Under the pieces are notes generated by a model. It saw only the letters and a program-made list of their open reading frames with translations. It was not told where the DNA came from and did not search any database. This document shows positions 18,264 through 60,198 of a stretch of DNA of 64,000 nt, in pieces. A program made the position numbers and the translations under genes. Within the stretch, counting starts at the first letter, position 1; the number at the start of each line of letters is the position of its first letter. Where the stretch lies: positions 8,377 to 72,376 of the forward strand of contig JBAXXI010000002.1 of assembly GCA_037127955.1 (NCBI GenBank), read 5' to 3'. This stretch comes from Candidatus Berkelbacteria bacterium (GTDB lineage: Bacteria > Patescibacteriota > UBA1384 > UBA12157).

Positions 18264-20204
18264 TCACCGGATCCCAATGACATTAGTTAATAGAGCTTGA
18301 GCAGTATAAAGTAAAAGTAAACCTAGGACTACCCCCATCATTAAATCTTTGGCTGTGGTGATATTTTCTTGGTTACCCTGACTGGTCATGTACAAGTAAC
18401 CTGCGTACATAAAAATAGCAATAGCTAGTCCGCTTAAAATTGGTAAACCCCAAACAAAAAACTTGCTAATATAGTCACCAATATTATTAACCCTACCAAA
18501 GTCTGTATCTATATTACCTGTGGTATTTGATTGAGTTACGGGCGCGCCCACCGTTACATTGATTTTCCGAGATGGCGCCGCACCTTGAGCATAAACTTTA
18601 CTAAAAATATTTAAGAAACTTTCTTTCTGATTTTCCTCAATTAAAACTCTAACTTCATACTCGTGTTCACCTTCAGGAACATTTCTATCAATAAAGGTTC
18701 TACTGGCAGTTTCTCCAACCTGTTTTCCATCTCGATAGATTATAAAATTGGCTGGTGCATATAAATCATAAAATTGACCGATATCGATCGTAACATCATA
18801 ATTATTAACCGAGCTATTTACGGCGCCACTACTGTTACTACAATTTATACCGATTGTGGTAATATTCGACGGATTAACAGGATTTCGAGTACTAGCCGAA
18901 ACCGTACCCTCTTGTTTACAGTAATCTGTTTGATCGTTCGATTCGTTTTCATTAAAAACCTTAACCCTAATCAAATGATCGCCAGCACCTGTTCCCGAAG
19001 CAGATGTATTCCAGACATAATCAACAGTTTGATCCTCGCCAGTCAATAAACCGTGTGATTTCTGATAAAAACATTGGCCATTTTCAGGATTAGCGCATTT
19101 AGAACTCTTACTACTAACCCATAAATAATAAGTATAACCTTTTAACTTTTTAAAATTAATTTTTATTGGTGATTTCTGACCAAGTTTAATTTCACTCGGT
19201 GTGGTGATAATAATATCGCGTCCGCTTGATGGTATGACTGGATCGACTACTTTTGTCTGAGTCGGACTTGAAACAGTTTTATCGGGCGAAGTTGACGAAT
19301 CAGAATGAGGCTTACAACTATTTACTCCTGAATCAATATTATTTGGTGTGTTACCCTGCATTGAAACAACTTCTGCGCCAAGGTCACGATTAGTAATACT
19401 TAACAAAATATTCTTACCGCTTGGACAAGCCTGACGATACTCACTAGTAATTTTAGGAATATTAATACTTTGACCTGACTCACCAATAAAAACCTTCCTT
19501 GACAACCACTGAGTACCACTAAAAACCGTATTTGTCCCCTCTACTGGCAGATTCTCTCGACCCAACTGATCAATCGATGTAACAAATTTAACTTCATGAT
19601 TAGTATTTTTCCTGATTTTTGCTGCAAAAGGTTCAGTTTCAAAACTTTTACCGCTACCAGAAACTTTAAATATTAAAGAATTATCCTTTGGCACAGTTAA
19701 AGTCATAGTGACGGTTTCACCACTATGCCATTGAAAAGCTGGTGAAATAGGCGCCATATTCAAGCCGCTAGCTTCTGTTCTCCAGTAAGGACGAAAAACT
19801 ATCTGAGTTTGACTCGTATTGCCATTTTCGTCTTTACCAAGTTCCCATTCTAAACCAACATCTGATTCTTGTCCGTTAACATCTTTTATACCAAAATAAA
19901 TATCTGGATTATCCTTGGACTTACAATAATTATTAGAGGAATAAGTAACAGTCTGAAAACGATTATCATCAGGCTTAACACTGCCTAAAACAACGGTCGC
20001 CTCAATACCGGTAAAATTCCCCCGACTAGTATTTTTTAAATAATAAGCACCAGGAAAACAAGATTTTGAACTAACCATATTGTTAAGCTCATCCGCCGAG
20101 GAAAAAGGATTGCCTAAAACAAAAAACAAGATAATTAAAAAAACAATTATGATCAATGAGTACAACCAATATTTTTTGGCTTTAAATAGATTTCTTAATT
20201 TCAA
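18264..20204 (-). CDS. large surface protein with N-terminal TM and C-terminal VirB2/TrbC-pilin-like double-TM domain
   Basis: N-terminal anchor helix and roughly 550 aa of Ser/Thr/Asn-rich ectodomain. The C-terminal 70 aa has two hydrophobic helices separated by a short polar loop (…VWGLPILSGLAIAIFMYAGYLYMTSQGNQENITTAKDLMMGVVLGLLLLYTAQALL…). Confidence 0.55.
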   Translation of the reverse strand: MKLRNLFKAKKYWLYSLIIIVFLIILFFVLGNPFSSADELNNMVSSKSCFPGAYYLKNTSRGNFTGIEATVVLGSVKPDDNRFQTVTYSSNNYCKSKDNPDIYFGIKDVNGQESDVGLEWELGKDENGNTSQTQIVFRPYWRTEASGLNMAPISPAFQWHSGETVTMTLTVPKDNSLIFKVSGSGKSFETEPFAAKIRKNTNHEVKFVTSIDQLGRENLPVEGTNTVFSGTQWLSRKVFIGESGQSINIPKITSEYRQACPSGKNILLSITNRDLGAEVVSMQGNTPNNIDSGVNSCKPHSDSSTSPDKTVSSPTQTKVVDPVIPSSGRDIIITTPSEIKLGQKSPIKINFKKLKGYTYYLWVSSKSSKCANPENGQCFYQKSHGLLTGEDQTVDYVWNTSASGTGAGDHLIRVKVFNENESNDQTDYCKQEGTVSASTRNPVNPSNITTIGINCSNSSGAVNSSVNNYDVTIDIGQFYDLYAPANFIIYRDGKQVGETASRTFIDRNVPEGEHEYEVRVLIEENQKESFLNIFSKVYAQGAAPSRKINVTVGAPVTQSNTTGNIDTDFGRVNNIGDYISKFFVWGLPILSGLAIAIFMYAGYLYMTSQGNQENITTAKDLMMGVVLGLLLLYTAQALLTNVIGIR

Positions 20205-40278: not shown

Positions 40279-41430
40279 TTATTTCATCGCTTTCTTAAGC
40301 TCTTCCACCTTATCTGTCTTTTCCCAAGTCAGGTTTAATTCTGTTCTACCAAAATGCCCATAAGCGGCTAGTTTTTGGTATACTGGTTTACGTAAATCTA
40401 GAGCCTCGATAATCATGCCTGGGCGTAAATCAAAAACTTTATTGACAGCTTCGGCAATCTTATCATCTTCAAACTTACCGGTACTAAAGGTATCAACTCG
40501 AACTGACATAGGCTCAGCTCGACCAATCGCATAAGCAATTTGCACTTCGGCGCGTTCAGCGAGCCCGGCAGCCACAATATTTTTGGCAACCCAACGGGCG
40601 GCATAACTACCAGATCGGTCAACCTTACTTGGATCTTTACCAGAGAAAGCACCGCCACCGTGGCGAGCATAACCGCCATAAGTATCGACGATAATTTTGC
40701 GACCAGTTAAACCAGTGTCGCCTTGAGGCCCACCAATCACGAAACGACCAGTAGTATTAACATAGAATTTAGTTTTACTGTCCAAATATTTCTCTGGAAC
40801 AACTTTTTTAATCACTAATTCGATAATTTCTTTTTGCAACTCTTTTTGTTTAATATTTTCATCGTGCTGAGCCGCGATTAAAACTGATTCAACTCTGACC
40901 GGTTTGTTACCATCGTACTCCACTGTGACCTGAGTCTTTCCATCTGGTCGAAGACCTTTGATAATCCCTTTTTTCCTAACTTCAGCTAAACGCGCAGCTA
41001 ATTTATGAGCTAAAACGATTGGTAAAGGCATAAGTTCCTTGGTTTCGGAACAGGCATAACCAAACATCAAACCTTGATCGCCGGCGCCAAGTTTCTCCAT
41101 ATTTTCCGCATCAACACCGCGAGCAATATCTACCGATTGACCAGTAATAGCCACATTGACGCCGCTAGTTTGCCAGTGGAAACCATATTCTGAGTCTGTA
41201 TAACCAATTTCTTTAATTTTGTTGCGAACAATCTTTTGAACATCAACATAAGTGTTAGTGGTAATTTCACCAGCAACCAAACAAAAACCATTAGTCAAAA
41301 AGGTTTCGCAAGCCACCCTAGCTTGAGGATCGTCAGTTAAAATTGCATCTAAAACCGCATCGGAAATTTGGTCAGCCATTTTGTCTGGGTGACCCTCGGT
41401 CACTGATTCGGAAGTAAAAAACTTTCGCAT
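40279..41430 (-). CDS. metK: S-adenosylmethionine synthetase
   Basis: [29 protein letters not shown] and DTYGG motifs. Confidence 0.97.
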
Positions 41431-41444
41431 TTTGTCCTTTCATT

Positions 41445-41580
41445 TACAAAAAAATCACCTTTTAAGGTGATGTATATTTTTACATTTTTCCCTAAAGGGT
41501 CGGAATTAGCACCCAACTTAAAGGGTTGCTGGTGGATCAACGGGCCGAATCCCTAACCACACTCTGAATATATTTTAGTT
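41445..41580 (-). promoter_or_regulatory. SAM-I (S-box) riboswitch in the metK leader, with intrinsic terminator as expression platform
   Basis: Minus-strand leader contains AGGGAUUCGGCCCGUUGAUCCACCAGCAACC … GGUGCUAAUUCCGACCC, matching the SAM-I core (GAGGGA-YGGCCCGAUGA…GGCAACC…GUGCYAAUUCC). This is followed by UCACCUUAAAAGGUGA and a U-run just before the metK ATG. Confidence 0.7.
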
Positions 41581-48756: not shown

Positions 48757-48757
<1 letters not shown>

Positions 48758-48945
48758 TGACAAATCCTAATATTATAGAATACTTTTTAACTTTCTTATT
48801 TTTGGCTTCTTTAGTAGGTACAATTTTTGGATTTATTAAAAAAATAAAATGGCTAAAAATAACTGGTATTAGTGTCTTAATTCTTTTCTTGTTTTATATC
48901 GGTTTTATTAGCTGGATAGCTTTTCAAATAAGTAGTTGGGATTAA
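48757..48945 (+). CDS. small 2-TM membrane protein (62 aa) inserted between atpD and atpC
   Basis: ATG overlaps the atpD stop (TAATG). Two hydrophobic helices. Confidence 0.35.
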
Positions 48946-49363: not shown

Positions 49364-49383
49364 ATAATCAATCAAAGACACAA

Positions 49384-49416
49384 AAAACCGTTCTCAAAAT
49401 GAGAACGGTTTTTTGT
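49384..49416 (+). terminator. rho-independent terminator ending the atp operon
   Basis: AAAAAACCGTTCTC-AAAAT-GAGAACGGTTTTTT. Confidence 0.8.
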
Positions 49417-49588: not shown

Positions 49589-50071
49589 GTGCCGCAAAAT
49601 ATAGATCTAGAGGACAAAATCGTCGGGCCACTCACGCTGACCCAGTTTTTGTATGTCCTAGGTGGTGGTTTGCTTGACTATATCTTGTTCCAATCTTTAG
49701 GTAAAAACTACTTCGGAATTTTCCTTTTAATCGGCGGCCCAATCGCCATCATTGCTTTGTCTTTAGCTTTTTTTAAGGTTCAAGAACAACCTTTGTCACA
49801 CTTTATTACTGTTGGTATCAGTTATTTAACTAGACCAAAAGTTAGAATCTGGAAAAGACTAGATAGCTACCCAACTGTTTTAACCGAACCACCAAAGAAA
49901 AAAGAAGAAGAACCGATTATTATTAAAAAACACTTAGAAAAAAGCGAATTAGACCAGTTAGCCTATAATTTAGACACTTTTCAGTCAGATAAACCAGAAG
50001 AGAAAAAGAAAATTGGCAGTATTACCAGCGCTTTTGAACAATTATTAAAAGAACAACCAAAACAAAAATAG
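49589..50071 (+). CDS. PrgI/VirB3-like T4SS membrane protein
   Basis: DKIVGPLTLTQFLYVLGGG followed by two TM helices. Sits upstream of the VirB4 genes as in Gram-positive T4SS. GTG start. Confidence 0.5.
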   Translation: MPQNIDLEDKIVGPLTLTQFLYVLGGGLLDYILFQSLGKNYFGIFLLIGGPIAIIALSLAFFKVQEQPLSHFITVGISYLTRPKVRIWKRLDSYPTVLTEPPKKKEEEPIIIKKHLEKSELDQLAYNLDTFQSDKPEEKKKIGSITSAFEQLLKEQPKQK

Positions 50072-50146
50072 ACTTATAGTAATTAAGACTTTTAGACTTA
50101 TAGAGGCGAACTATAAGCCTATAGATCTAAAAGTCTATAAGTCTGA
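50071..50146. repeat. heptamer-tandem palindromic element (TAAGACT/TATAGAC type) upstream of 50160 gene
   Basis: GACTTATAGTAATTAAGACTTTTAGACTTATAGAGG-CGAAC-TATAAGCCTATAGATCTAAAAGTCTATAAGTCTG. Confidence 0.65.
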
Positions 50147-50159
50147 TGCAGGAGGGGAA

Positions 50160-50849
50160 TTGGCAGACAAAAACTCACAACCAATTATCAGCACCCAAGA
50201 ATTTTTGAGTTTTGCTGAAATTCACGACGGAGTCGTCATTACTAAAACCGGAGAACTTCGGGTTCTATTAATGGCGTCATCGATCAATTTTTCCCTTAAA
50301 AGCGAACAGGAGCAAACAGCTATTGTTTATGCTTACCAAAATTTCTTAAACTCTCTGGCTTTTCCAATTCAAATTATGCTCCAATCTAGAAAACTAGATT
50401 TAACCAAATACATAGCTAAACTCAAAGAAATTAGTCGAGTTCAAACCAATGAACTTTTGCGCGGTCAAACCAATGACTACATCAATTACATCACCAGATT
50501 GATCGAAGTGGCCAATATTATGGATAAAAAGTTTTATGTGGTTGTCTCTTATATGCCACCGGTTTTAGACATAAAAAAAACTGGTCTATTTCCGTCGAAT
50601 AACGACACTTCGAAAATCAAAATGACCCCAGAAAGCTTTGAAAAATACCGTCAAGAATTATCGCAGCGCGTACAGGTAATTCAAAACGGATTAGGTTCAA
50701 TCGGAGTTCGTACTGCTCCACTTAATACTCAACAAGTTGTTGAACTTCTTTACGGTATATATAACCCTGAAGAAGCAGCTAAAGAAAAATTAATTAATTT
50801 TAATCATCTTAATTCAGATGTGATTGAGAGTGAAATAGAACAGCAATAA
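50160..50849 (+). CDS. VirB4 N-terminal-domain-like protein (229 aa), separate ORF
   Basis: FAEIHDGVVITKTGELRVLLMASSINFSLKSEQEQ… resembles the start of Gram-positive VirB4/PrgJ/TcpF proteins. TTG start after GGAGGGG. Assigned from memory. Confidence 0.45.
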   Translation: MADKNSQPIISTQEFLSFAEIHDGVVITKTGELRVLLMASSINFSLKSEQEQTAIVYAYQNFLNSLAFPIQIMLQSRKLDLTKYIAKLKEISRVQTNELLRGQTNDYINYITRLIEVANIMDKKFYVVVSYMPPVLDIKKTGLFPSNNDTSKIKMTPESFEKYRQELSQRVQVIQNGLGSIGVRTAPLNTQQVVELLYGIYNPEEAAKEKLINFNHLNSDVIESEIEQQ

Positions 50850-50889
50850 TTAGATTAAGGCTTGACGCGGAAATTTTCTGAGGAAAATT

Positions 50890-52935
50890 ATGAATAATCA
50901 AAATCAACAACCAAATATGCCAATGCAACCACCGAGACAGAATCCATTTTCTGGCGGTGCTGCTATTCCAATACAGGTAAACAAAACTCAACCTGTTAAT
51001 CAACCGATTCAAAATCCAAATTTAAGACAAAATCCTCAAGCGCCACAAGCTCAGCCACAGATGCAACCAAGGCCAGCTCAAATGCCGCCACAGGCCATGC
51101 CTCAAGTCAGACCAGTTCAAATCCCGAATACCAGACCGACTGTACCAACACAACCAGTCAAAAACATGATTCCAGTACTGAATCAACCAAATTTTCAACA
51201 GGGTCATAATTCACTTTTTGACTTGATTGCTCCCCCATCTTTTGAAAACAAACCGAACTATTTAAAAATCGGCAATATTTTTGTGCGCACTCTTTTTGTT
51301 TTTACTTACCCACGATACGTTATTACCAACTGGCTTTCGCCGATTATTAATTACGATATCACCATGGATATTTCCATGTTTATTCACCCAGTTGGGTCAA
51401 AAGAAACCATGGATCAACTTAAGAAAAAGGCCACTCAACTTGAATCATCGGAACAAATTGATCGCGAGAAAGGCTTAACCCGTGATCCAGAGAGAGAAAC
51501 TGCTATTTCAGATATTGAAAACCTACGCGACGTGCTTCAACGAGGTGAATTAAAACTGTTCCAGTACTCCTTATATTTTACAATTTATGCTCAAAGCGAG
51601 GCTGAACTCAACACCATTACTGAGCAGCTCGAATCGACTTTGGGCGGCATGTTAATTTATACTAAACAATCACTTTTACAGATGGAACAAGGCTTTAATT
51701 CCACGATTCCACTTGGTATCGATCAACTCAACGTTAAGCGAAATCTTGACACCGCTTCCCTCTCCACCACTTTTCCTTTTACTTCCTCAACTTTGTCGTC
51801 AAACGACGGTATTCTTTATGGTATCAATAGACACAATAATTCCTTAGTTTTATTTGACCGTTTTAATCTTGAAAATGCTAACTCAGTTGTTTTTGCCAAA
51901 TCAGGTTCAGGTAAATCTTACACGGTCAAACTTGAAGCGCTGCGTTCACTCATGCTTGGTACCGACGTCATTATTATTGACCCAGAAAATGAATATAAAG
52001 CTCTTTGCGATGCTGTCGGCGGTAATTATTTGGATATTTCTTTAAATTCCGATAAACGTATTAATCCGTTTGACTTACCAGTAGCCGGTATCGGTTTACA
52101 AGCTGGTGCTTCAGGAGACGACATTTTAAGAAGTAATATTACCATGCTCCATGGTTTAATTTCTTTAATGATGGGCAGAATCACTCAAGATGAATCCGCG
52201 CTTCTCGAAAAAGCTATTTATGAAACCTATAATCTTCGCGATATCACCAACGATATCAATACTCAAAAAAATGCCCCGCCACTTTTGGCCGATTTGCAGG
52301 CTATTTTAGCTAATATGACCGGCGCCGAAAGCTTAGTTAAACGTTTAACCAAATATACCGAAGGTACTTTTAAAGGTTTGTTTGACCAACCAACCAACTT
52401 TAATTTGGGTTCTGGCTTAACAGTGTTTAGTGTCCGGGATTTGGAAGATTCACTTCGCCCGATTGGTATGTACATGGTTTTAAATTACATTTGGCAAAGA
52501 ATTCGTTTTAATGTTAAAAAACGTATTATGATTATTGATGAAGCCTGGTGGATGATGCAATACGAAGATTCCGGTAAGTTCCTGTACGCCTTGGCCAAAC
52601 GTGGTCGTAAATATTTCTTAGGTTTAACTATTATTACTCAGGATGTTGAAGACTTTATTGATTCAAAATACGGTCGAGCCGTAGTCAACAACTCTTCGAT
52701 GCAAATTTTAATGAAGCAAAACCCAGCTTCAGTTGATAAAATCGCCACGGTTTTTGGTTTAACTGAAGGTGAAAAATTCATGTTACTTGAGTGCGAAGTG
52801 GGCGAAGGTTTATTTTTTGCCGGTCTCAACCACGTTGCCATTAAGGTTGTAGCCAGTTACACCGAAGACAGGATTATCACCACTAACCCACAAGAAATTC
52901 TTGATGCACAAAGCAAAAAAAGCTCTGATTTTTAG
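50890..52935 (+). CDS. virB4: VirB4/TrbE/PrgJ-family T4SS ATPase with P/Q-rich low-complexity N-terminus
   Basis: FAKSGSGKSY Walker A and IIDEAWWMM Walker B. …YPRYV…NWL…, DISMFIHP and FDRFNLENANSVV blocks. The first roughly 100 aa are Pro/Gln-rich. Confidence 0.85.
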   Translation: MNNQNQQPNMPMQPPRQNPFSGGAAIPIQVNKTQPVNQPIQNPNLRQNPQAPQAQPQMQPRPAQMPPQAMPQVRPVQIPNTRPTVPTQPVKNMIPVLNQPNFQQGHNSLFDLIAPPSFENKPNYLKIGNIFVRTLFVFTYPRYVITNWLSPIINYDITMDISMFIHPVGSKETMDQLKKKATQLESSEQIDREKGLTRDPERETAISDIENLRDVLQRGELKLFQYSLYFTIYAQSEAELNTITEQLESTLGGMLIYTKQSLLQMEQGFNSTIPLGIDQLNVKRNLDTASLSTTFPFTSSTLSSNDGILYGINRHNNSLVLFDRFNLENANSVVFAKSGSGKSYTVKLEALRSLMLGTDVIIIDPENEYKALCDAVGGNYLDISLNSDKRINPFDLPVAGIGLQAGASGDDILRSNITMLHGLISLMMGRITQDESALLEKAIYETYNLRDITNDINTQKNAPPLLADLQAILANMTGAESLVKRLTKYTEGTFKGLFDQPTNFNLGSGLTVFSVRDLEDSLRPIGMYMVLNYIWQRIRFNVKKRIMIIDEAWWMMQYEDSGKFLYALAKRGRKYFLGLTIITQDVEDFIDSKYGRAVVNNSSMQILMKQNPASVDKIATVFGLTEGEKFMLLECEVGEGLFFAGLNHVAIKVVASYTEDRIITTNPQEILDAQSKKSSDF

Positions 52936-52947
52936 ATTTATCAAAAA

Positions 52948-54147
52948 ATGAAACACATATACTTGAAACCAGAAAATAAAAAAGGTTTCGCGGTTGTTAT
53001 TGCAATTGTCATTGTAGTTATTTTGATAATTGTCTGTCTAATCGCTGCCGCTGCTTTTATTGGCGACCGTCAGGGAGCAAATGCTAATGGAGAGATGATC
53101 ACTAATAATTCTACTAATGGCAACAATGGGCAAACTACAAAATGTGCTAATATTAGCTTTGGTAGCAATTATTACCCTTGGATTAAAGATGCCTCTGCTA
53201 AATATTTAAATGGAGACGATGCCGCCTTAATAACCATGATAAACGCTGAATCAACATGGAACCCTAATGCTTCAAACCAAGGTCATGCAACTGGTTTAGG
53301 TCAATTTATGCCAAGAACAGCTAGAGGTTACCCAGAATTTGTTGGTGGTAACGATAAGCATGGTATCACTTGGCCAGCTGGAAATGTTTATGATATTTCA
53401 ACTGGTCATACTGACGATGCTCGATTCGATGCCAAAAGATCGATTTATGCTGCCGCGCATCTTCTTGGTGGGCAGATAGACCGATTTGGATCTTTAAAAG
53501 AAGCTTACGAGCAAGGTTATCACACTTACTGCAAAGAAAACACTGCTAAATGCCAACAACAAAAATCAGAGGCTCAAACGGCTAGTGCAAAAATCATCGA
53601 TAATTACAATATTCTAAAATCTGGCGGCAAATGTATTGATTCGTCTTCAAATATAGCCAATAGCACATCAAATGGTGCTTGCTTGCCAGTTGCTTTTATA
53701 CATGAAAACCACGGCGGATTTTGCGGTCGTGCTAGCCAAGCTCAAGTAGTTAATTATTTTAATCCGAATCAATATCCTTCTCCAACTTCTTCAGCTTTTC
53801 AAGAAAAAAATGGATTAAGCGCCAAGACAGTACATGATAAAAGTGGTAAACCATATATTGGTACAGGGCAATCAGCAAATATCGAAGCTGCCATCAACTC
53901 GATTCAAAAAGGTTTTCCGGTTATCGTTTATACTGATCTGGAAGGCGGACAACATATTTTTGTTCTAACCGGATATGATTCTGCCACTCAAACCTTTCGA
54001 GCAAACGACACTAACTCTGGAATTAGAGATAATTTTCAAACCACTTGTACATCAATTTTAGGCGGGCCAAGAGGAGTATTGCTAACAAAAGCAAATTTAT
54101 TAGCACATCTAGTACCTCAAGCAAACTATTTTATCCTAGTTCAATAA
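52948..54147 (+). CDS. VirB1-like cell-wall hydrolase: membrane anchor, lytic transglycosylase (SLT) domain, C-terminal papain-like (C39/CHAP-like) peptidase domain
   Basis: INAESTWNPNASN…ATGLGQFMP gives the SLT catalytic ES and GLxQ motifs. The C-terminus has Cys (…GFCGRASQAQ…) and His (GGQHIFVLTGYD) in a C39-like arrangement. Confidence 0.65.
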   Translation: MKHIYLKPENKKGFAVVIAIVIVVILIIVCLIAAAAFIGDRQGANANGEMITNNSTNGNNGQTTKCANISFGSNYYPWIKDASAKYLNGDDAALITMINAESTWNPNASNQGHATGLGQFMPRTARGYPEFVGGNDKHGITWPAGNVYDISTGHTDDARFDAKRSIYAAAHLLGGQIDRFGSLKEAYEQGYHTYCKENTAKCQQQKSEAQTASAKIIDNYNILKSGGKCIDSSSNIANSTSNGACLPVAFIHENHGGFCGRASQAQVVNYFNPNQYPSPTSSAFQEKNGLSAKTVHDKSGKPYIGTGQSANIEAAINSIQKGFPVIVYTDLEGGQHIFVLTGYDSATQTFRANDTNSGIRDNFQTTCTSILGGPRGVLLTKANLLAHLVPQANYFILVQ

Positions 54148-56611: not shown

Positions 56612-56723
56612 GAATTTTCCCCTTTTTAAATAAGATGATTGTAGTTTACGCTTTTTCTCGAGAAAAGTCAAGGGATTATTTATAATTTTGCTAAGAAAAT
56701 GCTATGATAAATTAAGGAAGAAT

Positions 56724-59252
56724 ATGGCAGATAAAATTGATCCAAAGAAAATTGATGTCAAAACCACACCCAAAAAACCAGCCCCTGGTGGTTTTGATGT
56801 AACTCAAAATAAAGTCAGTGTTGAAGAAGTAAACAGTTCACAAGATAGTGTTATGGGTAGTACCGAAGAAACTCCAGAAATCCAAGAAATTCCTGTAAAT
56901 CAAGTAAATCAAGAGGTTCAACCAAATAATACTCAGGTCAAACAACAACCTGAAGCCCAACCTCAAACTGAATCTAAACCTCAAAATCAACCAGAAAAAG
57001 AAGAAGAACCGGCTCAGCAAGAAAATCCTGAGGAAGAGAACCCTGAAGAGGATGAAAAAGAAAAATCTGAGGACGAAAAAGAGGAAGAAGCTGAAGAAGA
57101 GGAACCTGAGGAGGAGGAAGAAAAAGAGGAAGAGCAGTCAGAACCAGAAGAAAACGAAGAAGAAAATCCAGAGAATGAAGAAAAGGAACCAGAAGAAGAA
57201 AGCCCCGAAACCGAAGAAAGTAATACACCAGAAAACGAAAATGCCGAAACTCCTGAAGCTGGCGAAACTAGCGCTTCACCAGAAGCTGCCGAAGGCGCAG
57301 AAGTAGCAGAGGGAGCCGAAACCGCCGAAGCAGCGGCAGCAGCCGAAGAAGCGGCCGTGGTTGCTGAGGAAGCCGTAGTAGCTGGCGAAGAAGTTGCGGC
57401 TGGCGCCGCCGGCGCCCCAATTTTACTGGTTGCTTTAGGTGTACTAGTCGTTATTTTATTGGTCATAATCGTCATTTTTGGCTTTATGGCTTGTCAGGCC
57501 TCTCAAGGTTATTTTGGTAAATCTACACCGATTCCTTCAGGTAAAGATTACGCCAACGTTAAAACTGTTTTAACAGCCGCAAACACCCAAACCAAAACCA
57601 GCACGGGCAAAAATATCAAAGGTTATAATCAATTAAATCTTAACAATAATGATAAAAAATTTATTGAGGACGGCTTAGCTGACAAACGCCTACTTGATGC
57701 TCTCAAATATCTATCTGATCGACACGCCTCTATTGGTATTAGTCATATTATCGACGGCTATCAAAATATGACGGTTAACCCAGAAGCCGGCGAATCCACT
57801 TCTCAAATTAATAGTAATATTTCGGCCCATAAAGAAGGTTTGGCCGCCGATATCGCCAGTGTTGATTTTGTTTACAAAGTTCTTGAGCCAAGCGAATATT
57901 GTCAAAATTTAGTCGCCTCAGCCTGCGGGCCGCTTGCTTTTGCCTGTAAACGTGCAGCCAAAGCCGCCAAGTGGGGCGATATTGTTTATTATCATGAAGA
58001 CGTAAAACAACCAAATTCAAATACCACTAATGTTGACGCAAACGGCAATCCTGTCACAAGTACCGACGGTTCAATCGATAATACTAATCTTGATCAAATC
58101 GGCACTAGTCTTGAAGAAATTAATGCTTCAAACACTGATATTTTAGCTCGATTAGAAGCTTTACAGAAAAAACTATCAGATCAAATTGCCAACTCAGGTC
58201 AAAATCAAGCAGCCCAACAGGATCAAATCCAACGACTTCAAAAAATTATTGACCAATATCGCATCACCATTACTAAACTAAACGATCTCAAAACCAAATT
58301 AGCCAAAATGGTCACTAGTATTCAAGATATGCAAACAAAACTTACTACTCTAAACACTAATTTAGGCACAGCTAGCAACGTCATGAGTAAACTCGGTGCC
58401 GGCAGTAGTACTCTAAACACACTTGGCGATATCACCAAGATTACCGGTCAAGTCAATCAAACCTTAAATATTACTAAAACTCAATTAAATAAATTGATCG
58501 GCGGTCTTAATCAAATCGTCATCACTTTTGTAAAACAATTAAGCATTGCGGAGGCCGCCACCAACTCAACTGATCTAGGTAATGCCATCGCGAACCTTGA
58601 AAGCAGTTCGTCTGACGCGAGCACCCTAGCGGGTTCAGACGCAATCAGCAATCTCGACACCGCCCTACCCGATCTAGATATTTTTAAAAATACTCTCGAT
58701 AGCGCGGCCATGGCTTTAGCCCAAAAAGAATTAGACAAACTAACTAATGAAGCTAAAGATGAAGCCGTGAGCAAGGTCAAAGATGAGTTAAATAAAGCTG
58801 TTGGCGAAAAGCTTGGTAGTGCTTTGGGCAGTCTTGGTCTGGGCGGCAGCGGCAATGAACTTTTACGCCAGAAATGTTTAGGAAATTTAACCTCTATCAC
58901 TCCTTCGAACACTAATTTCAATGGCACAGATTATGTCCAAGCCATCCCAATCAAACTTTCCTGGCAAGACAAAAAACCAGACGGCTTGATCGATCCGCGA
59001 GTTTATTATATGGTCTATCAACCAGAAGCCAGAGCCAAAGTTCACACTGTTATTAGCGAACTTCTTCAGTTTCCATATGACATGAATAACAAATTTTACT
59101 ATCGAATTGTTCAATTAATAACCTATAGCCAAGATCGCGATGTCGCCCCATTCTGGGATAAGCTCATTGATCTTTACGGTTTACCTCGGCCAGCCAATTT
59201 CGGACTTTTCTCCATGCCAGAAGCCTCGGATCAAATTCACGTCTCATACTAA
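56724..59252 (+). CDS. bitopic membrane protein with extreme Glu/Pro/Ala-rich N-terminal region and large coiled-coil ectodomain
   Basis: ATG at 56724 after AAGGAAG. Roughly 200 aa of E-rich low complexity, a TM (PILLVALGVLVVILLVIIVIFGF), then roughly 590 aa with helical heptads. Confidence 0.5.
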   Translation: MADKIDPKKIDVKTTPKKPAPGGFDVTQNKVSVEEVNSSQDSVMGSTEETPEIQEIPVNQVNQEVQPNNTQVKQQPEAQPQTESKPQNQPEKEEEPAQQENPEEENPEEDEKEKSEDEKEEEAEEEEPEEEEEKEEEQSEPEENEEENPENEEKEPEEESPETEESNTPENENAETPEAGETSASPEAAEGAEVAEGAETAEAAAAAEEAAVVAEEAVVAGEEVAAGAAGAPILLVALGVLVVILLVIIVIFGFMACQASQGYFGKSTPIPSGKDYANVKTVLTAANTQTKTSTGKNIKGYNQLNLNNNDKKFIEDGLADKRLLDALKYLSDRHASIGISHIIDGYQNMTVNPEAGESTSQINSNISAHKEGLAADIASVDFVYKVLEPSEYCQNLVASACGPLAFACKRAAKAAKWGDIVYYHEDVKQPNSNTTNVDANGNPVTSTDGSIDNTNLDQIGTSLEEINASNTDILARLEALQKKLSDQIANSGQNQAAQQDQIQRLQKIIDQYRITITKLNDLKTKLAKMVTSIQDMQTKLTTLNTNLGTASNVMSKLGAGSSTLNTLGDITKITGQVNQTLNITKTQLNKLIGGLNQIVITFVKQLSIAEAATNSTDLGNAIANLESSSSDASTLAGSDAISNLDTALPDLDIFKNTLDSAAMALAQKELDKLTNEAKDEAVSKVKDELNKAVGEKLGSALGSLGLGGSGNELLRQKCLGNLTSITPSNTNFNGTDYVQAIPIKLSWQDKKPDGLIDPRVYYMVYQPEARAKVHTVISELLQFPYDMNNKFYYRIVQLITYSQDRDVAPFWDKLIDLYGLPRPANFGLFSMPEASDQIHVSY

Positions 59253-59350: not shown

Positions 59351-59629
59351 ATGGATATAATTAATAAATTTTTAGGCGGCAACTCCAAATATCAAAGGCT
59401 CGCCGGGCCGCTACGCGCCGCTCAAGTCTGCGACTCGGCCCGTTCGCTCGCCGATGGTCGTTTCGCGGTTCTGAGCTTTATAGACGGCTGCTTAACGGTC
59501 GGCGTCACCAGCTCCGCCGCCAGCGCCAACTTACAATTTGAACTACCTCAAATACAAAAAGAAATCAACGAAAAATTAAATTTCGAGTGGGTCAAAAAGA
59601 TCAGAATTAAAATTGTTTCAAGTTTTTAA
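59351..59629 (+). CDS. DUF721 (DciA-like) protein
   Basis: …LSFIDGCLTVGVTSSAASANLQFELPQIQKEINEKL… fits the DUF721 pattern (L.V.V.SSAWA.EL…LN) usually found near recF/dnaN. Confidence 0.55.
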   Translation: MDIINKFLGGNSKYQRLAGPLRAAQVCDSARSLADGRFAVLSFIDGCLTVGVTSSAASANLQFELPQIQKEINEKLNFEWVKKIRIKIVSSF

Positions 59630-60198
59630 AACTTGATTTGAGGCAAATTTAAAGTTCCGGAAATAAAGGCTGGAGCCAAGGAAATAAGGTATAAAGCCAA
59701 AGAAATAAATATACCATAAAGTAAAACTCTAATTGACCAGTTCAAATAATATTTGCGTGGCACATTGGAAAAACTAGTTAAATTATAGGTTTCCAAAATA
59801 TAAGCACTATAAATTTTTGTCTCGTCGCCCATAGTTTCTAGAATTTCTTTTTTATAAGCTTCTTCAGATTTACTATCAATCTGATGATGATAAAAAAGAC
59901 TTTCTTTTTGACCTTTTTTGCTGACAAAATGACTTGGTTTTAAAGCCATTAAGGCAAATAACATCGAGATCACGATGGCCGCCAAAGCCGCTACAAAGAA
60001 AACACTATTAGCCCACTCAGCCTTAAAATTACTGGCAAAAAACACAATCAAAGCCGAGTTAAAACCAATCATAATGTTGGTTCTTAAATCGAGCATATTG
60101 CGAATTTCGACCTGTTTATTTAATAAATCGGACACAAACGTAATTCGCTCAAGCGCGCCAAATTCGCCATCCCATTTAATTTCTTCTTTAGTTTCCAT
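59626..60198 (-). CDS. hypothetical 3-TM membrane protein (190 aa)
   Basis: TM pair after a roughly 45-aa N-terminal region, plus a third C-terminal TM. RBS AAAGAGGG. Confidence 0.45.
   Translation of the reverse strand: METKEEIKWDGEFGALERITFVSDLLNKQVEIRNMLDLRTNIMIGFNSALIVFFASNFKAEWANSVFFVAALAAIVISMLFALMALKPSHFVSKKGQKESLFYHHQIDSKSEEAYKKEILETMGDETKIYSAYILETYNLTSFSNVPRKYYLNWSIRVLLYGIFISLALYLISLAPAFISGTLNLPQIKF

What the first reader, a model, noticed from the sequence alone, without database searches (positions are those of the whole stretch)
50160..51260. VirB4 apparently split: N-terminal-domain ORF, 40-bp gap, then ATPase ORF with a 100-aa Pro/Gln-rich leader
ORF 50160..50849 carries the DGVVITKTGEL…INFSLKSEQEQ pattern I associate with the very N-terminus of Gram-positive VirB4 proteins. 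The following 681-aa ORF has the rest of VirB4, preceded by MNNQNQQPNMPMQPPRQNPF… low complexity. This is either a natural two-polypeptide VirB4, a domain duplication, or a recent disruption or pseudogenisation.
Basis: inference. Interest (0 to 1): 0.6.

Follow-up and report, generated by a model that had tools for sequence, protein, structure and literature searches.

The report
Naturally split VirB4 secretion ATPase
In this Berkelbacteria (Patescibacteria) chromosome the type IV secretion motor VirB4 is encoded as two adjacent genes, a 229-aa N-terminal piece (TrsD/TraC-like) and a 681-aa ATPase piece with a disordered Pro/Gln-rich head; the arrangement is real and conserved but has already been described for this phylum.

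Summary

The split is not an error or a pseudogene. None of 80 species-level Patescibacteria loci is fused. In 56 of them the VirB4 gene lies downstream on the same strand, mostly overlapping or within 20 nt. A closed Berkelbacteria genome has the same atp-PrgI-ORF1-VirB4 order. The same split occurs in Bacillota, Actinomycetota and haloarchaeal plasmids, including staphylococcal trsD-trsE.

One rare 898-aa natural fusion, seen in several sequencing runs, is collinear with ORF1 + linker + ORF2. Its Pro/Ala-rich linker sits where the window has its Pro/Gln leader. The leader is predicted disordered and is hypervariable in length.

Quinonero-Coronel et al. 2025 already report TrsD homologues, remotely homologous to the VirB4 N-terminus, beside virB4 across Patescibacteria. 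Verdict: real, ordinary for the phylum, already known.

The parts
49589..50071 (+). PrgI-family (VirB3-like) membrane protein, 160 aa. It is the first gene of the T4SS cluster, after the atpC terminator.
   Evidence: Pfam PF12666 PrgI, E 3.1e-8, above cut-off. One strong hydrophobic stretch at aa 39-65. Same position in the closed Berkelbacteria genome L006 and in the Clostridium, Miltoncostaea and Lactococcus plasmids.
50150..50157 (+). Shine-Dalgarno sequence AGGAGGGG in front of the ORF1 TTG start.
   Evidence: Read directly. The same AGGAGG + TTG/ATG arrangement precedes ORF1 homologues in L007, L009 and L012-L015.
50160..50849 (+). ORF1, 229 aa. A TrsD/TraC-like protein equal to the first half (~200 aa) of the VirB4 N-terminal domain, made as a separate soluble polypeptide.
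50850..50889 (+). 40-nt intergenic gap with GAGGA (50880-84) 5 nt before the ORF2 ATG. It holds stops in ORF2's frame at 50851 and 50863.
   Evidence: No terminator-like site lies between the ORFs.
50890..51204 (+). Pro/Gln/Asn-rich leader of ORF2 (aa 1-105). It is low complexity, predicted disordered, and positionally equivalent to the linker of a rare fused orthologue.
   Evidence: Composition and open frame. pLDDT ~35 with no secondary structure for aa 1-100. Length varies from 10 to 134 aa among 120 homologues, with no sequence conservation. No DNA tandem repeat. Aligns with the Pro/Ala-rich linker (aa 236-320) of fused P0312.
51205..51790 (+). ORF2 aa ~106-300: second half of the VirB4 N-terminal domain.
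   Evidence: PF03135 CagE_TrbE_VirB positions 62-196/204 and TraC_F_IV 273-349/375. CD1110 model from position 183. The profile reaches the solved C-terminal domain 4AG5 only from profile position 234. The model has beta-alpha elements at 118-256, and a conserved but low-confidence stretch at 257-326.
51791..52935 (+). ORF2 aa ~301-681: VirB4 C-terminal RecA-like ATPase domain, with Walker A AKSGSGKS (aa 336-343) and Walker B IMIIDE (aa 546-551).
   Evidence: PF19044, PF12846 and PF01935. 4AG5 E 6.9e-61. Foldseek 4ag6 E 4e-22, TM 0.84. Motifs invariant in 65 homologues.
52948..54147 (+). Membrane-anchored SLT lytic transglycosylase + C39-like peptidase (VirB1/TraG/TrsG-like cell-wall hydrolase), directly downstream.
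   Evidence: PF01464 E 4.7e-10 and PF13529 E 1.2e-9. N-terminal TM segment. A cell-wall hydrolase occupies a comparable downstream position in pGO1-type (CHAP), Lactococcus (CHAP) and Pontibacillus (metalloendopeptidase) loci.

Best explanation
The locus encodes a naturally split VirB4, the signature ATPase of type IV secretion systems, in a chromosomal Patescibacteria-type T4SS cluster ordered PrgI/VirB3-like, ORF1, ORF2, cell-wall hydrolase.

ORF1 is the free-standing N-terminal module, called TrsD/TraD in staphylococcal and enterococcal plasmids and Pfam TraC-like elsewhere. It corresponds to roughly the first 200 residues of the ~400-residue VirB4 N-terminal domain. ORF2 supplies the second half of that domain plus the Walker A/B ATPase domain.

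Both genes are probably co-transcribed and each is translated from its own ribosome-binding site (inferred from sequence features). The two polypeptides then most likely dock non-covalently to rebuild one VirB4 protomer (inferred). In the R388 structure the N-terminal domain is the part that VirB3 wraps around and that mediates VirB4 dimerisation, so ORF1 would be the membrane-proximal, PrgI-contacting module and ORF2 the motor (inferred).

The 105-aa Pro/Gln-rich head of ORF2 is an intrinsically disordered, fast-evolving extension at the break point. It is equivalent to the flexible linker of the rare fused form. It is most likely a tolerated or tether-like segment rather than a folded domain.

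Shown here: homology, complementarity, conservation of the split, and the existence of a collinear fusion. Inferred: physical assembly of the two pieces and the VirB3 contact.
For: 1. Complementary, non-overlapping matches of ORF1 and ORF2 to the same full-length VirB4 models. All 62 ORF1-family members hit the N-terminal part of VirB4_plasma and the TrsD model.

3. Size bookkeeping. ORF1 (~200 aa) plus ORF2 aa 106-300 gives ~395 aa. The TrwK N-terminal domain is residues 15-400 (PMC9259494).

4. Conservation. More than 1000 homologue clusters of ORF1 were found, and the 120 best listed are all 207-266 aa. There are 3502 50%-identity representatives. 0 of 80 GTDB species loci are fused. 56 have VirB4 downstream on the same strand, and 41 of these have gaps of -12 to +20 nt, consistent with translational coupling. 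The closed genome CP011213 has the same atpAGDC-PrgI-TraC-like-VirB4 order.

5. Rosetta-stone fusion. P0312 (898 aa) occurs on at least 5 contigs from at least 3 runs, with PrgI upstream. ORF1 aligns to its aa 13-235 (38% identity, E 2e-49) and ORF2 aa 62-679 to its aa 264-898 (56%), with a Pro/Ala-rich linker at 236-320.

6. The same split occurs outside the phylum: S. aureus trsC-trsD(227 aa)-trsE(670 aa), C. perfringens, Pontibacillus, Miltoncostaea and Haloterrigena plasmids. A Lactococcus plasmid has the fused 795-aa form, whose first ~220 aa are not covered by the ORF2 profile.

7. Intact catalytic motifs and 54-57% mean column identity in both families.

8. Literature. TrsD is described as remotely homologous to the VirB4 N-terminus, is the most abundant T4SS component in Patescibacteria, is mostly next to virB4, and is essential in Ca. 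Southlakia epibionticum (PMC12102498).
Against: Sequence links between ORF1 and fused VirB4 proteins are weak for single sequences. hhalign against the Lactococcus VirB4 is not significant, although it aligns to the expected region, aa 37-129. The ORF1 profile finds nothing in PDB by sequence.

No tool here could test physical association of ORF1 with ORF2 or with PrgI.

In loci labelled Gracilibacteria, Peregrinibacteria or Peribacteria, the ORF1 homologue has no adjacent VirB4 (also PMC12102498). This shows the module can be encoded independently and might act as a separate subunit.

Low-complexity extensions also occur at the N-terminus and C-terminus of ORF1 homologues, and about 40% of loci have none. 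The leader is therefore not strictly a junction-specific linker.
Confidence: 0.82

Rival explanations
1. ORF1 is an independent accessory T4SS subunit (TrsD family). It shares ancient ancestry with the VirB4 N-terminus but does not complete ORF2's protomer. It might act as an assembly factor, a chaperone-like adaptor, or a VirB3/PrgI partner with its own stoichiometry.
Against: A natural fusion exists that is collinear with ORF1 + linker + ORF2. ORF2 lacks the first ~180-290 positions of every full-length VirB4 model. In most genomes the gene pair overlaps or abuts. TrwK gives the longest structural alignment (158 aa against 85-98 for the chaperones).
Confidence: 0.12
2. Recent disruption, pseudogenisation, or an assembly or sequencing frameshift of a once-fused virB4.
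For: The only support is that the two ORFs are in different frames and 40 nt apart.
Against: Two in-frame stops lie upstream of the ORF2 ATG, and each ORF has its own SD sequence. The split is present in 80 of 80 species-level relatives, including two complete chromosomes. Both proteins are under strong conservation with intact Walker motifs. Identical proteins were recovered from independent assemblies.
Confidence: 0.02
3. Domain duplication: ORF1 is a paralogous copy of an N-terminal region that ORF2 also contains.
For: Both ORFs give weak hits to Pfam TraC_F_IV.
Against: Those hits fall on different parts of the model: 110-184 for ORF1 and 273-349 for ORF2. hhalign of the two family profiles gives probability 0.15%, E 0.39. 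The ORF1 HMM gives no significant hit in TrsE, C. perfringens or Pontibacillus VirB4.
Confidence: 0.01
4. The Pro/Gln-rich leader is a functional module in its own right, for example a substrate- or partner-recruiting disordered region, or a cell-envelope-spanning spacer, rather than a neutral linker remnant.
For: Compositional character (P/Q/N/A-rich, few charges) is retained across many Berkelbacteria homologues despite complete sequence turnover. Similar tails occur on ORF1 homologues. The N-terminal MNQ/MNN start is conserved.
Against: Length ranges from 10 to 134 aa, and about 40% of relatives have no long extension on either side of the junction. No conserved motif was found. More distant homologues carry a short charged leader instead. 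VirB4 is cytoplasmic, so an envelope-spanning role is unlikely.
Confidence: 0.1

Closest known systems
TrsD + TrsE of staphylococcal pGO1/pSK41 (TraD + TraE of pIP501), MPF-FATA conjugation systems
   Same: The gene order is the same: VirB3-like membrane protein, a ~227-aa TrsD, a ~670-aa VirB4 lacking the N-terminal ~200 aa, then a cell-wall hydrolase. ORF1 and all 62 relatives match the TrsD model. The ORF1-family HMM hits S. aureus TrsD at E 1.4e-5, and hhalign gives E 0.0017.
   Different: The TrsD match scores only 28 bits against a 200-bit family cut-off, so this is a distant relative, not a family member. The window's system is chromosomal with no relaxase seen nearby, and it sits in a CPR bacterium. 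TrsE has no Pro/Gln-rich leader (sequence).
Patescibacteria T4SS as described by Quinonero-Coronel et al. 2025 (PMC12102498) and in Ca. Southlakia epibionticum ML1
   Same: PrgI/VirB3, a TrsD homologue and VirB4 are clustered on the chromosome, without a nearby relaxase. TrsD homologues are reported in 2,221 assemblies, with 1,664 next to virB4. TrsD and VirB4 are essential in strain ML1. The window's ORF2 is an NCBI Berkelbacteria MAG protein.
   Different: Nothing essential differs. The paper treats TrsD as a component with no assigned function rather than explicitly as half of a split VirB4. It does not discuss the low-complexity termini or fused exceptions.
TrwK/VirB4 of plasmid R388 (PDB 7O41-7O43, 8RTB, 8RTD)
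   Same: It is the best structural match for both ORF1 (N-terminal domain) and ORF2. The ~400-aa N-terminal domain plus ATPase domain architecture equals ORF1 + ORF2 minus the leader.
   Different: TrwK is one 823-aa polypeptide from a diderm system. Sequence identity is 12-16%.
CD1110-family / PrgJ-type fused VirB4 of Firmicutes, e.g. the Lactococcus pLLUL021B 795-aa protein
   Same: ORF2 scores above the CD1110 family cut-off (350 against 325 bits). PrgI lies immediately upstream.
   Different: These are fused. Their first ~220 aa are not covered by the ORF2 profile and correspond to ORF1.
Other split or fused T4SS ATPase architectures: VirB3-VirB4 fusions, and the TraI + TraJ two-protein coupling protein of pIP501
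   Same: They show that T4SS inner-membrane ATPase modules are repeatedly fused and split in evolution (PMC4981023; PMC12102498).
   Different: Different junctions and different proteins are involved.

Membership tests
VirB4 (T4SS ATPase) | C-terminal RecA-like/HerA-FtsK-type ATPase domain with Walker A and B motifs | tested here: met
   ORF2: PF19044, PF12846 and PF01935. 4AG5 E 6.9e-61. Foldseek TM 0.84. AKSGSGKS 336-343 and IMIIDE 546-551, invariant in homologues.
VirB4 (T4SS ATPase) | Complete ~400-aa N-terminal domain on the same polypeptide as the ATPase domain | tested here: not met
   ORF2 aligns to full-length models only from position 183/752, 287/894, 253/800 or 239/792. The missing part is encoded by ORF1.
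VirB4 (T4SS ATPase) | Encoded with other T4SS inner-membrane and cell-wall components (VirB3/PrgI, VirB1-like hydrolase) | tested here: met
   PrgI upstream and an SLT + C39-like hydrolase downstream. Same synteny in L006.
VirB4 (T4SS ATPase) | ATP hydrolysis, hexamer formation and a requirement for secretion | not testable with these tools
   Needs biochemistry or genetics. Essentiality of homologues in Ca. S. epibionticum is reported in PMC12102498.
NCBIfam NF045971, VirB4-like ATPase, CD1110 family | Whole-protein score at or above the curated cut-off (325 bits) | tested here: met
   ORF2 scores 350.5 bits, E 1.9e-104, but the alignment covers model positions 183-733 only.
NCBIfam NF041427, TrsD/TraD family | Whole-protein score at or above the curated cut-off (200 bits) | tested here: not met
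   ORF1 scores 28 bits, E 1.7e-6. 62/62 relatives match at E <= 1e-3, best 8.9e-9. This is a distant homologue, not a member of the curated subfamily.
NCBIfam NF041427, TrsD/TraD family | ~200-230-aa protein encoded between the VirB3-like gene and a virB4 that lacks its N-terminus | tested here: met
   Window order is PrgI, ORF1, ORF2. Same order as trsC-trsD-trsE in L003.
Pfam PF26593 (TraC-like) | Match to the family model | tested here: inconclusive
   Precomputed PF26593 is listed for P0001 (100% identical to ORF1) and for all 120 listed homologues. L006 carries it with the name TraC-like. The local Pfam copy did not report it for ORF1, probably because that copy lacks the model.
Patescibacteria-type (MPF-FATA-like) chromosomal T4SS | Chromosomal location, a VirB4 of the Patescibacteria clade with adjacent TrsD and PrgI, and no relaxase in the cluster | tested here: met
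   Flanked by the ATP synthase operon and housekeeping genes. Closest homologues are all Patescibacteria/Berkelbacteria. None of the window ORFs scanned matched a relaxase or coupling-protein family; many smaller ORFs were not scanned. No VirB4 phylogeny was built.

The most novel reading that the evidence does not exclude
The split is functional rather than neutral. Freeing the N-terminal module (ORF1/TrsD) lets the cell load it at a different stoichiometry from the motor, for example only on the VirB3/PrgI-bound inner ring of VirB4. It could also let the module be exchanged or regulated separately. The disordered Pro/Gln-rich termini would act as in-trans tethers or partner-recruiting regions in a T4SS that lacks a relaxase and has been repurposed for the epibiotic lifestyle.
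Probability: 0.1. Interest if true: 0.55.

Novelty: already known. Interest (0 to 1): 0.25.

Why it matters
VirB4 is the one universal T4SS protein, and the Patescibacteria T4SS is reported to be essential for epibiotic growth. TrsD still has no assigned function in the literature.

Reading TrsD-like proteins explicitly as the detached first half of the VirB4 N-terminal domain gives a concrete hypothesis: this module carries the VirB3/PrgI contact and the dimerisation surface. The fold matches, the size bookkeeping and the rare natural fusion found here support that reading. It is testable by co-purification, complex prediction, or engineered fusion in Ca. Southlakia or in pGO1/pIP501.

For genome annotation, these gene pairs should not be flagged as frameshifted virB4 pseudogenes. 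For this particular window, nothing is unusual relative to its phylum.

Tried and rejected
- Sequence search of ORF1 and of its family profile against PDB found only chance hits.
- hhalign of the ORF1 family against a single fused Lactococcus VirB4 was not significant.
- The duplication hypothesis was rejected.
- The frameshift or pseudogene hypothesis was rejected.
- A DNA tandem repeat as the origin of the leader was ruled out; none is present.
- I first thought the low-complexity region swaps strictly between the ORF1 C-terminus and the ORF2 N-terminus. Across 56 loci the two lengths are not inversely related (Spearman +0.31), 3 loci have both, 21 have neither, and N-terminal extensions of ORF1 homologues also exist. 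The idea was weakened to 'free termini of the pieces tolerate low-complexity growth'.
- P0351 looked like a possible VirB3-TrsD fusion. It has no Pfam support and comes from a single 1.2-kb contig, so I dropped it.
- The intergenic hairpin upstream of ORF1 is not conserved in relatives.
- The AFDB fold library was unavailable.
- I could not decide whether the fused P0312 is ancestral or a re-fusion. It is about equally distant (61-63%) from many split homologues.
- In one search I first picked the wrong ORF for the E. faecalis PrgJ-like reference, so that comparison was not used.
Full report
**What is in the sequence**

ORF1 runs 50160..50849 (+, TTG start, 229 aa). ORF2 runs 50890..52935 (+, ATG start, 681 aa). 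The gap is 40 nt. ORF2 is in the +1 frame relative to ORF1, and two stops lie in its frame just upstream of the ATG (50851-53 and 50863-65). AGGAGG precedes the TTG and GAGGA precedes the ATG. No terminator-like site separates the genes. A single sequencing indel therefore cannot explain the arrangement.

The first 105 residues of ORF2 are 23% Pro, 22% Gln and 13% Asn, and almost uncharged. The frame stays open where chance predicts P of about 0.001, and the other two frames are closed. There is no DNA tandem repeat.

**Identity of the pieces**

- The upstream gene (49589..50071) is a PrgI-family, VirB3-like membrane protein. The downstream gene (52948..54147) is a membrane-anchored SLT + C39-like peptidase, that is, VirB1-like.
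- ORF2 scores above the curated cut-off of the CD1110 VirB4 family (350 bits, E 1.9e-104). In every full-length VirB4 model, though, the alignment starts only at position 183-290.
- ORF2's profile matches the solved VirB4 C-terminal domain (4AG5, E 6.9e-61) from profile position 234 onward. Its AlphaFold model superposes on 4AG6 (TM 0.84) and on ~600 columns of R388 TrwK.
- Walker A (AKSGSGKS, 336-343) and Walker B (IMIIDE, 546-551) are intact and invariant among homologues.
- ORF1 matches the N-terminal parts of the same models: VirB4_plasma positions 102-233 of 894 (E 7.9e-9) and CD1110 positions 11-120 of 752. It also matches the TrsD/TraD family model (E 1.7e-6). All 62 sampled ORF1 relatives repeat the first and last of these hits.
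- ORF1 and ORF2 are not similar to each other (hhalign probability 0.15%). Their weak Pfam TraC_F_IV hits fall on different parts of that model.
- Size bookkeeping fits. About 200 aa from ORF1 plus ORF2 residues ~106-300 equals the ~385-aa N-terminal domain of TrwK, residues 15-400 (PMC9259494).
- The break therefore lies inside the N-terminal domain, not at the boundary between that domain and the ATPase.

**Is the split natural?**

- ORF2 is identical to an NCBI protein from a Candidatus Berkelbacteria MAG. ORF1 is identical to a JGI protein carrying precomputed PF26593, which names TraC-like.
- ORF1 has more than 1000 homologue clusters, and the 120 best listed are 207-266 aa. It has 3502 representatives at the 50% identity level.
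- A scan of GTDB species genomes returned 80 Patescibacteria loci. None is fused. 56 have the VirB4 gene downstream on the same strand, and in 41 of these the genes overlap or lie within 20 nt, the usual signature of translational coupling.
- The closed genome CP011213 (Berkelbacteria GW2011_GWE1_39_12) has the identical order atpA-G-D-C, PrgI, TraC-like (235 aa), VirB4 (699 aa).
- Loci labelled Gracilibacteria, Peregrinibacteria or Peribacteria have the ORF1 homologue without an adjacent VirB4, in line with the published observation. One caveat applies: I called ORFs with table 11, while some of these lineages use code 25 (the code usage is from my own knowledge).
- Outside the phylum the same split occurs on plasmids:
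  - S. aureus: trsC, trsD (227 aa), trsE (670 aa)
  - C. perfringens: PrgI, 312 aa, 641 aa
  - Pontibacillus: 274 aa overlapping a 621-aa CD1110-family VirB4; 38% identity to ORF2, the best plasmid hit
  - Miltoncostaea (Actinomycetota)
  - Haloterrigena (Archaea)

- A Lactococcus plasmid shows the fused alternative, PrgI followed by a 795-aa VirB4. Its first ~220 residues are not covered by the ORF2 profile.

**A natural fusion**

Among the 150 best representatives, one, P0312, is 898 aa. It occurs on at least five contigs from at least three sequencing runs, with PrgI directly upstream. ORF1 aligns to its residues 13-235 (38% identity, E 2e-49). ORF2 residues 62-679 align to its residues 264-898 (56% identity). 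The conserved ORF2 core (from residue ~102) starts at P0312 residue 321. Between the two lies an ~85-aa Pro/Ala-rich linker. That is exactly where the window has its stop codon, gap and Pro/Gln leader.

This collinear Rosetta-stone protein is the strongest indication that ORF1 and ORF2 work as one VirB4. Whether it is ancestral or a re-fusion is unresolved. The nearest non-Patescibacteria relatives found are split.

**The leader**

AlphaFold gives residues 1-100 a pLDDT of ~35 and no secondary structure. Among 120 homologues the segment before the conserved '...QQG/HNSLFDLIAP' start varies from 10 to 134 aa with no sequence conservation. It is P/Q/N/A-rich in Berkelbacteria-like sequences, and short and charged in more distant ones.

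In 25 of 56 related loci a comparable 60-177-aa low-complexity tail sits on the C-terminus of the ORF1 homologue. 7 loci have a long ORF2 leader, 3 have both, and 21 have neither. Other representatives carry such regions at the N-terminus of the ORF1 homologue.

The leader is best read as a tolerated, fast-evolving disordered extension at a free terminus, positionally equivalent to a linker. A specific function is possible but unsupported.

**Mechanism**

Shown: a complementary pair of conserved, intact genes in an operon-like T4SS cluster, and a collinear natural fusion.

Inferred: the two polypeptides assemble into one VirB4 protomer. In R388 the N-terminal domain mediates VirB4 dimerisation and is what VirB3 wraps around (PMC9259494; PMC12857230). 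ORF1 is therefore the probable PrgI-contacting, membrane-proximal module and ORF2 the motor.

Two conserved segments are predicted with low confidence in isolation: ORF1 200-229 and ORF2 257-326. They are candidate interface elements. This is speculative.

**Comparison with the literature, and verdict**

Quinonero-Coronel et al. 2025 (PMC12102498) already report the following:
- They found 2,272 homologues, of which 1,664 are next to virB4, except in Gracilibacteria.
- No function is assigned to it.
- The TrsD homologue of Ca. Southlakia epibionticum is essential.

NCBI already names relatives 'TraC family protein'.

This analysis adds four modest points:
- fold-level support for the TrsD = VirB4 N-terminal-half equation;
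- localisation of the break inside the N-terminal domain;
- the rare fused orthologue with a linker at the break;
- the variable low-complexity termini.

Noticed in passing
window 50069-50144: An imperfect 34-nt-arm inverted repeat (AGACTTATAG motifs, direct and inverted) fills the PrgI-ORF1 intergenic space. It folds into a long hairpin (-27.5 kcal/mol, z -3.8) just before the ORF1 Shine-Dalgarno and has no T-run. It is not conserved in related loci.
   Followed up: partly
window 49380-49416: A perfect 17-bp inverted repeat with flanking A/T runs lies right after atpC. It looks like a bidirectional intrinsic terminator separating the ATP synthase operon from the T4SS cluster.
   Followed up: partly
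window 48757-48945: A 62-aa ORF with two predicted transmembrane helices sits between atpD and atpC, an unusual place for an extra gene. Real gene or not is unknown.
   Followed up: no
window 18264-20204 (- strand): A 646-aa protein ends in a T4SS_pilin (PF18895, VirB2-like) domain at aa 573-641, about 30 kb from virB4. It is far larger than ordinary VirB2 pilins.
   Followed up: no
window 56688-59252: An 854-aa protein has a ~200-aa Glu-rich acidic low-complexity N-terminus, one TM segment and a long coiled-coil-like region, with no Pfam match. An 836-aa protein occupies a similar position in the closed Berkelbacteria genome (L006 9911-12421). It may be a lineage-specific T4SS-associated surface protein.
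   Followed up: partly
window 59626-60198 (- strand): A 190-aa protein matches PycTM (Pycsar effector transmembrane domain, E 2.3e-10). This is a possible anti-phage defence remnant in a CPR genome.
   Followed up: no
window 41479-41574 (- strand): A SAM-I riboswitch (RF00162, 54.9 bits) lies upstream of metK (40279-41430, - strand).
   Followed up: no
L089 3001-5697 (also L090, L091); protein P0312: A rare naturally fused TraC-like + VirB4 protein (898 aa) with a Pro/Ala-rich linker, in a Patescibacteria-like T4SS cluster. It was recovered from several independent sequencing runs.
   Followed up: yes
L019, L023-L027, L030, L032-L034, L044, L046, L054 and others; proteins P0355, P0329, P0369, P0342: ORF1 homologues often carry 80-220-aa P/Q/A/T/N-rich low-complexity extensions at the C-terminus or the N-terminus. 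Such regions are a general feature of these cytoplasmic T4SS pieces in Patescibacteria.
   Followed up: partly
window 51658-51867 (ORF2 aa 257-326): This is one of the most conserved stretches of the VirB4 piece, with many invariant residues (FPF, NRHNNSL, FDRF). AlphaFold nevertheless predicts it with pLDDT below 50 in the isolated chain. It may be ordered only in the complex.
   Followed up: no
L001 (Pontibacillus NZ_CP062975), L002 (C. perfringens pJFP838A): Firmicute ORF1 homologues have an N-terminal hydrophobic, TM-like segment that the Patescibacteria ORF1 lacks. These clusters sit on large plasmids typed as 'non-mobilizable', and the Pontibacillus one also encodes a pilin-like Mbov_0395-family protein.
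   Followed up: no
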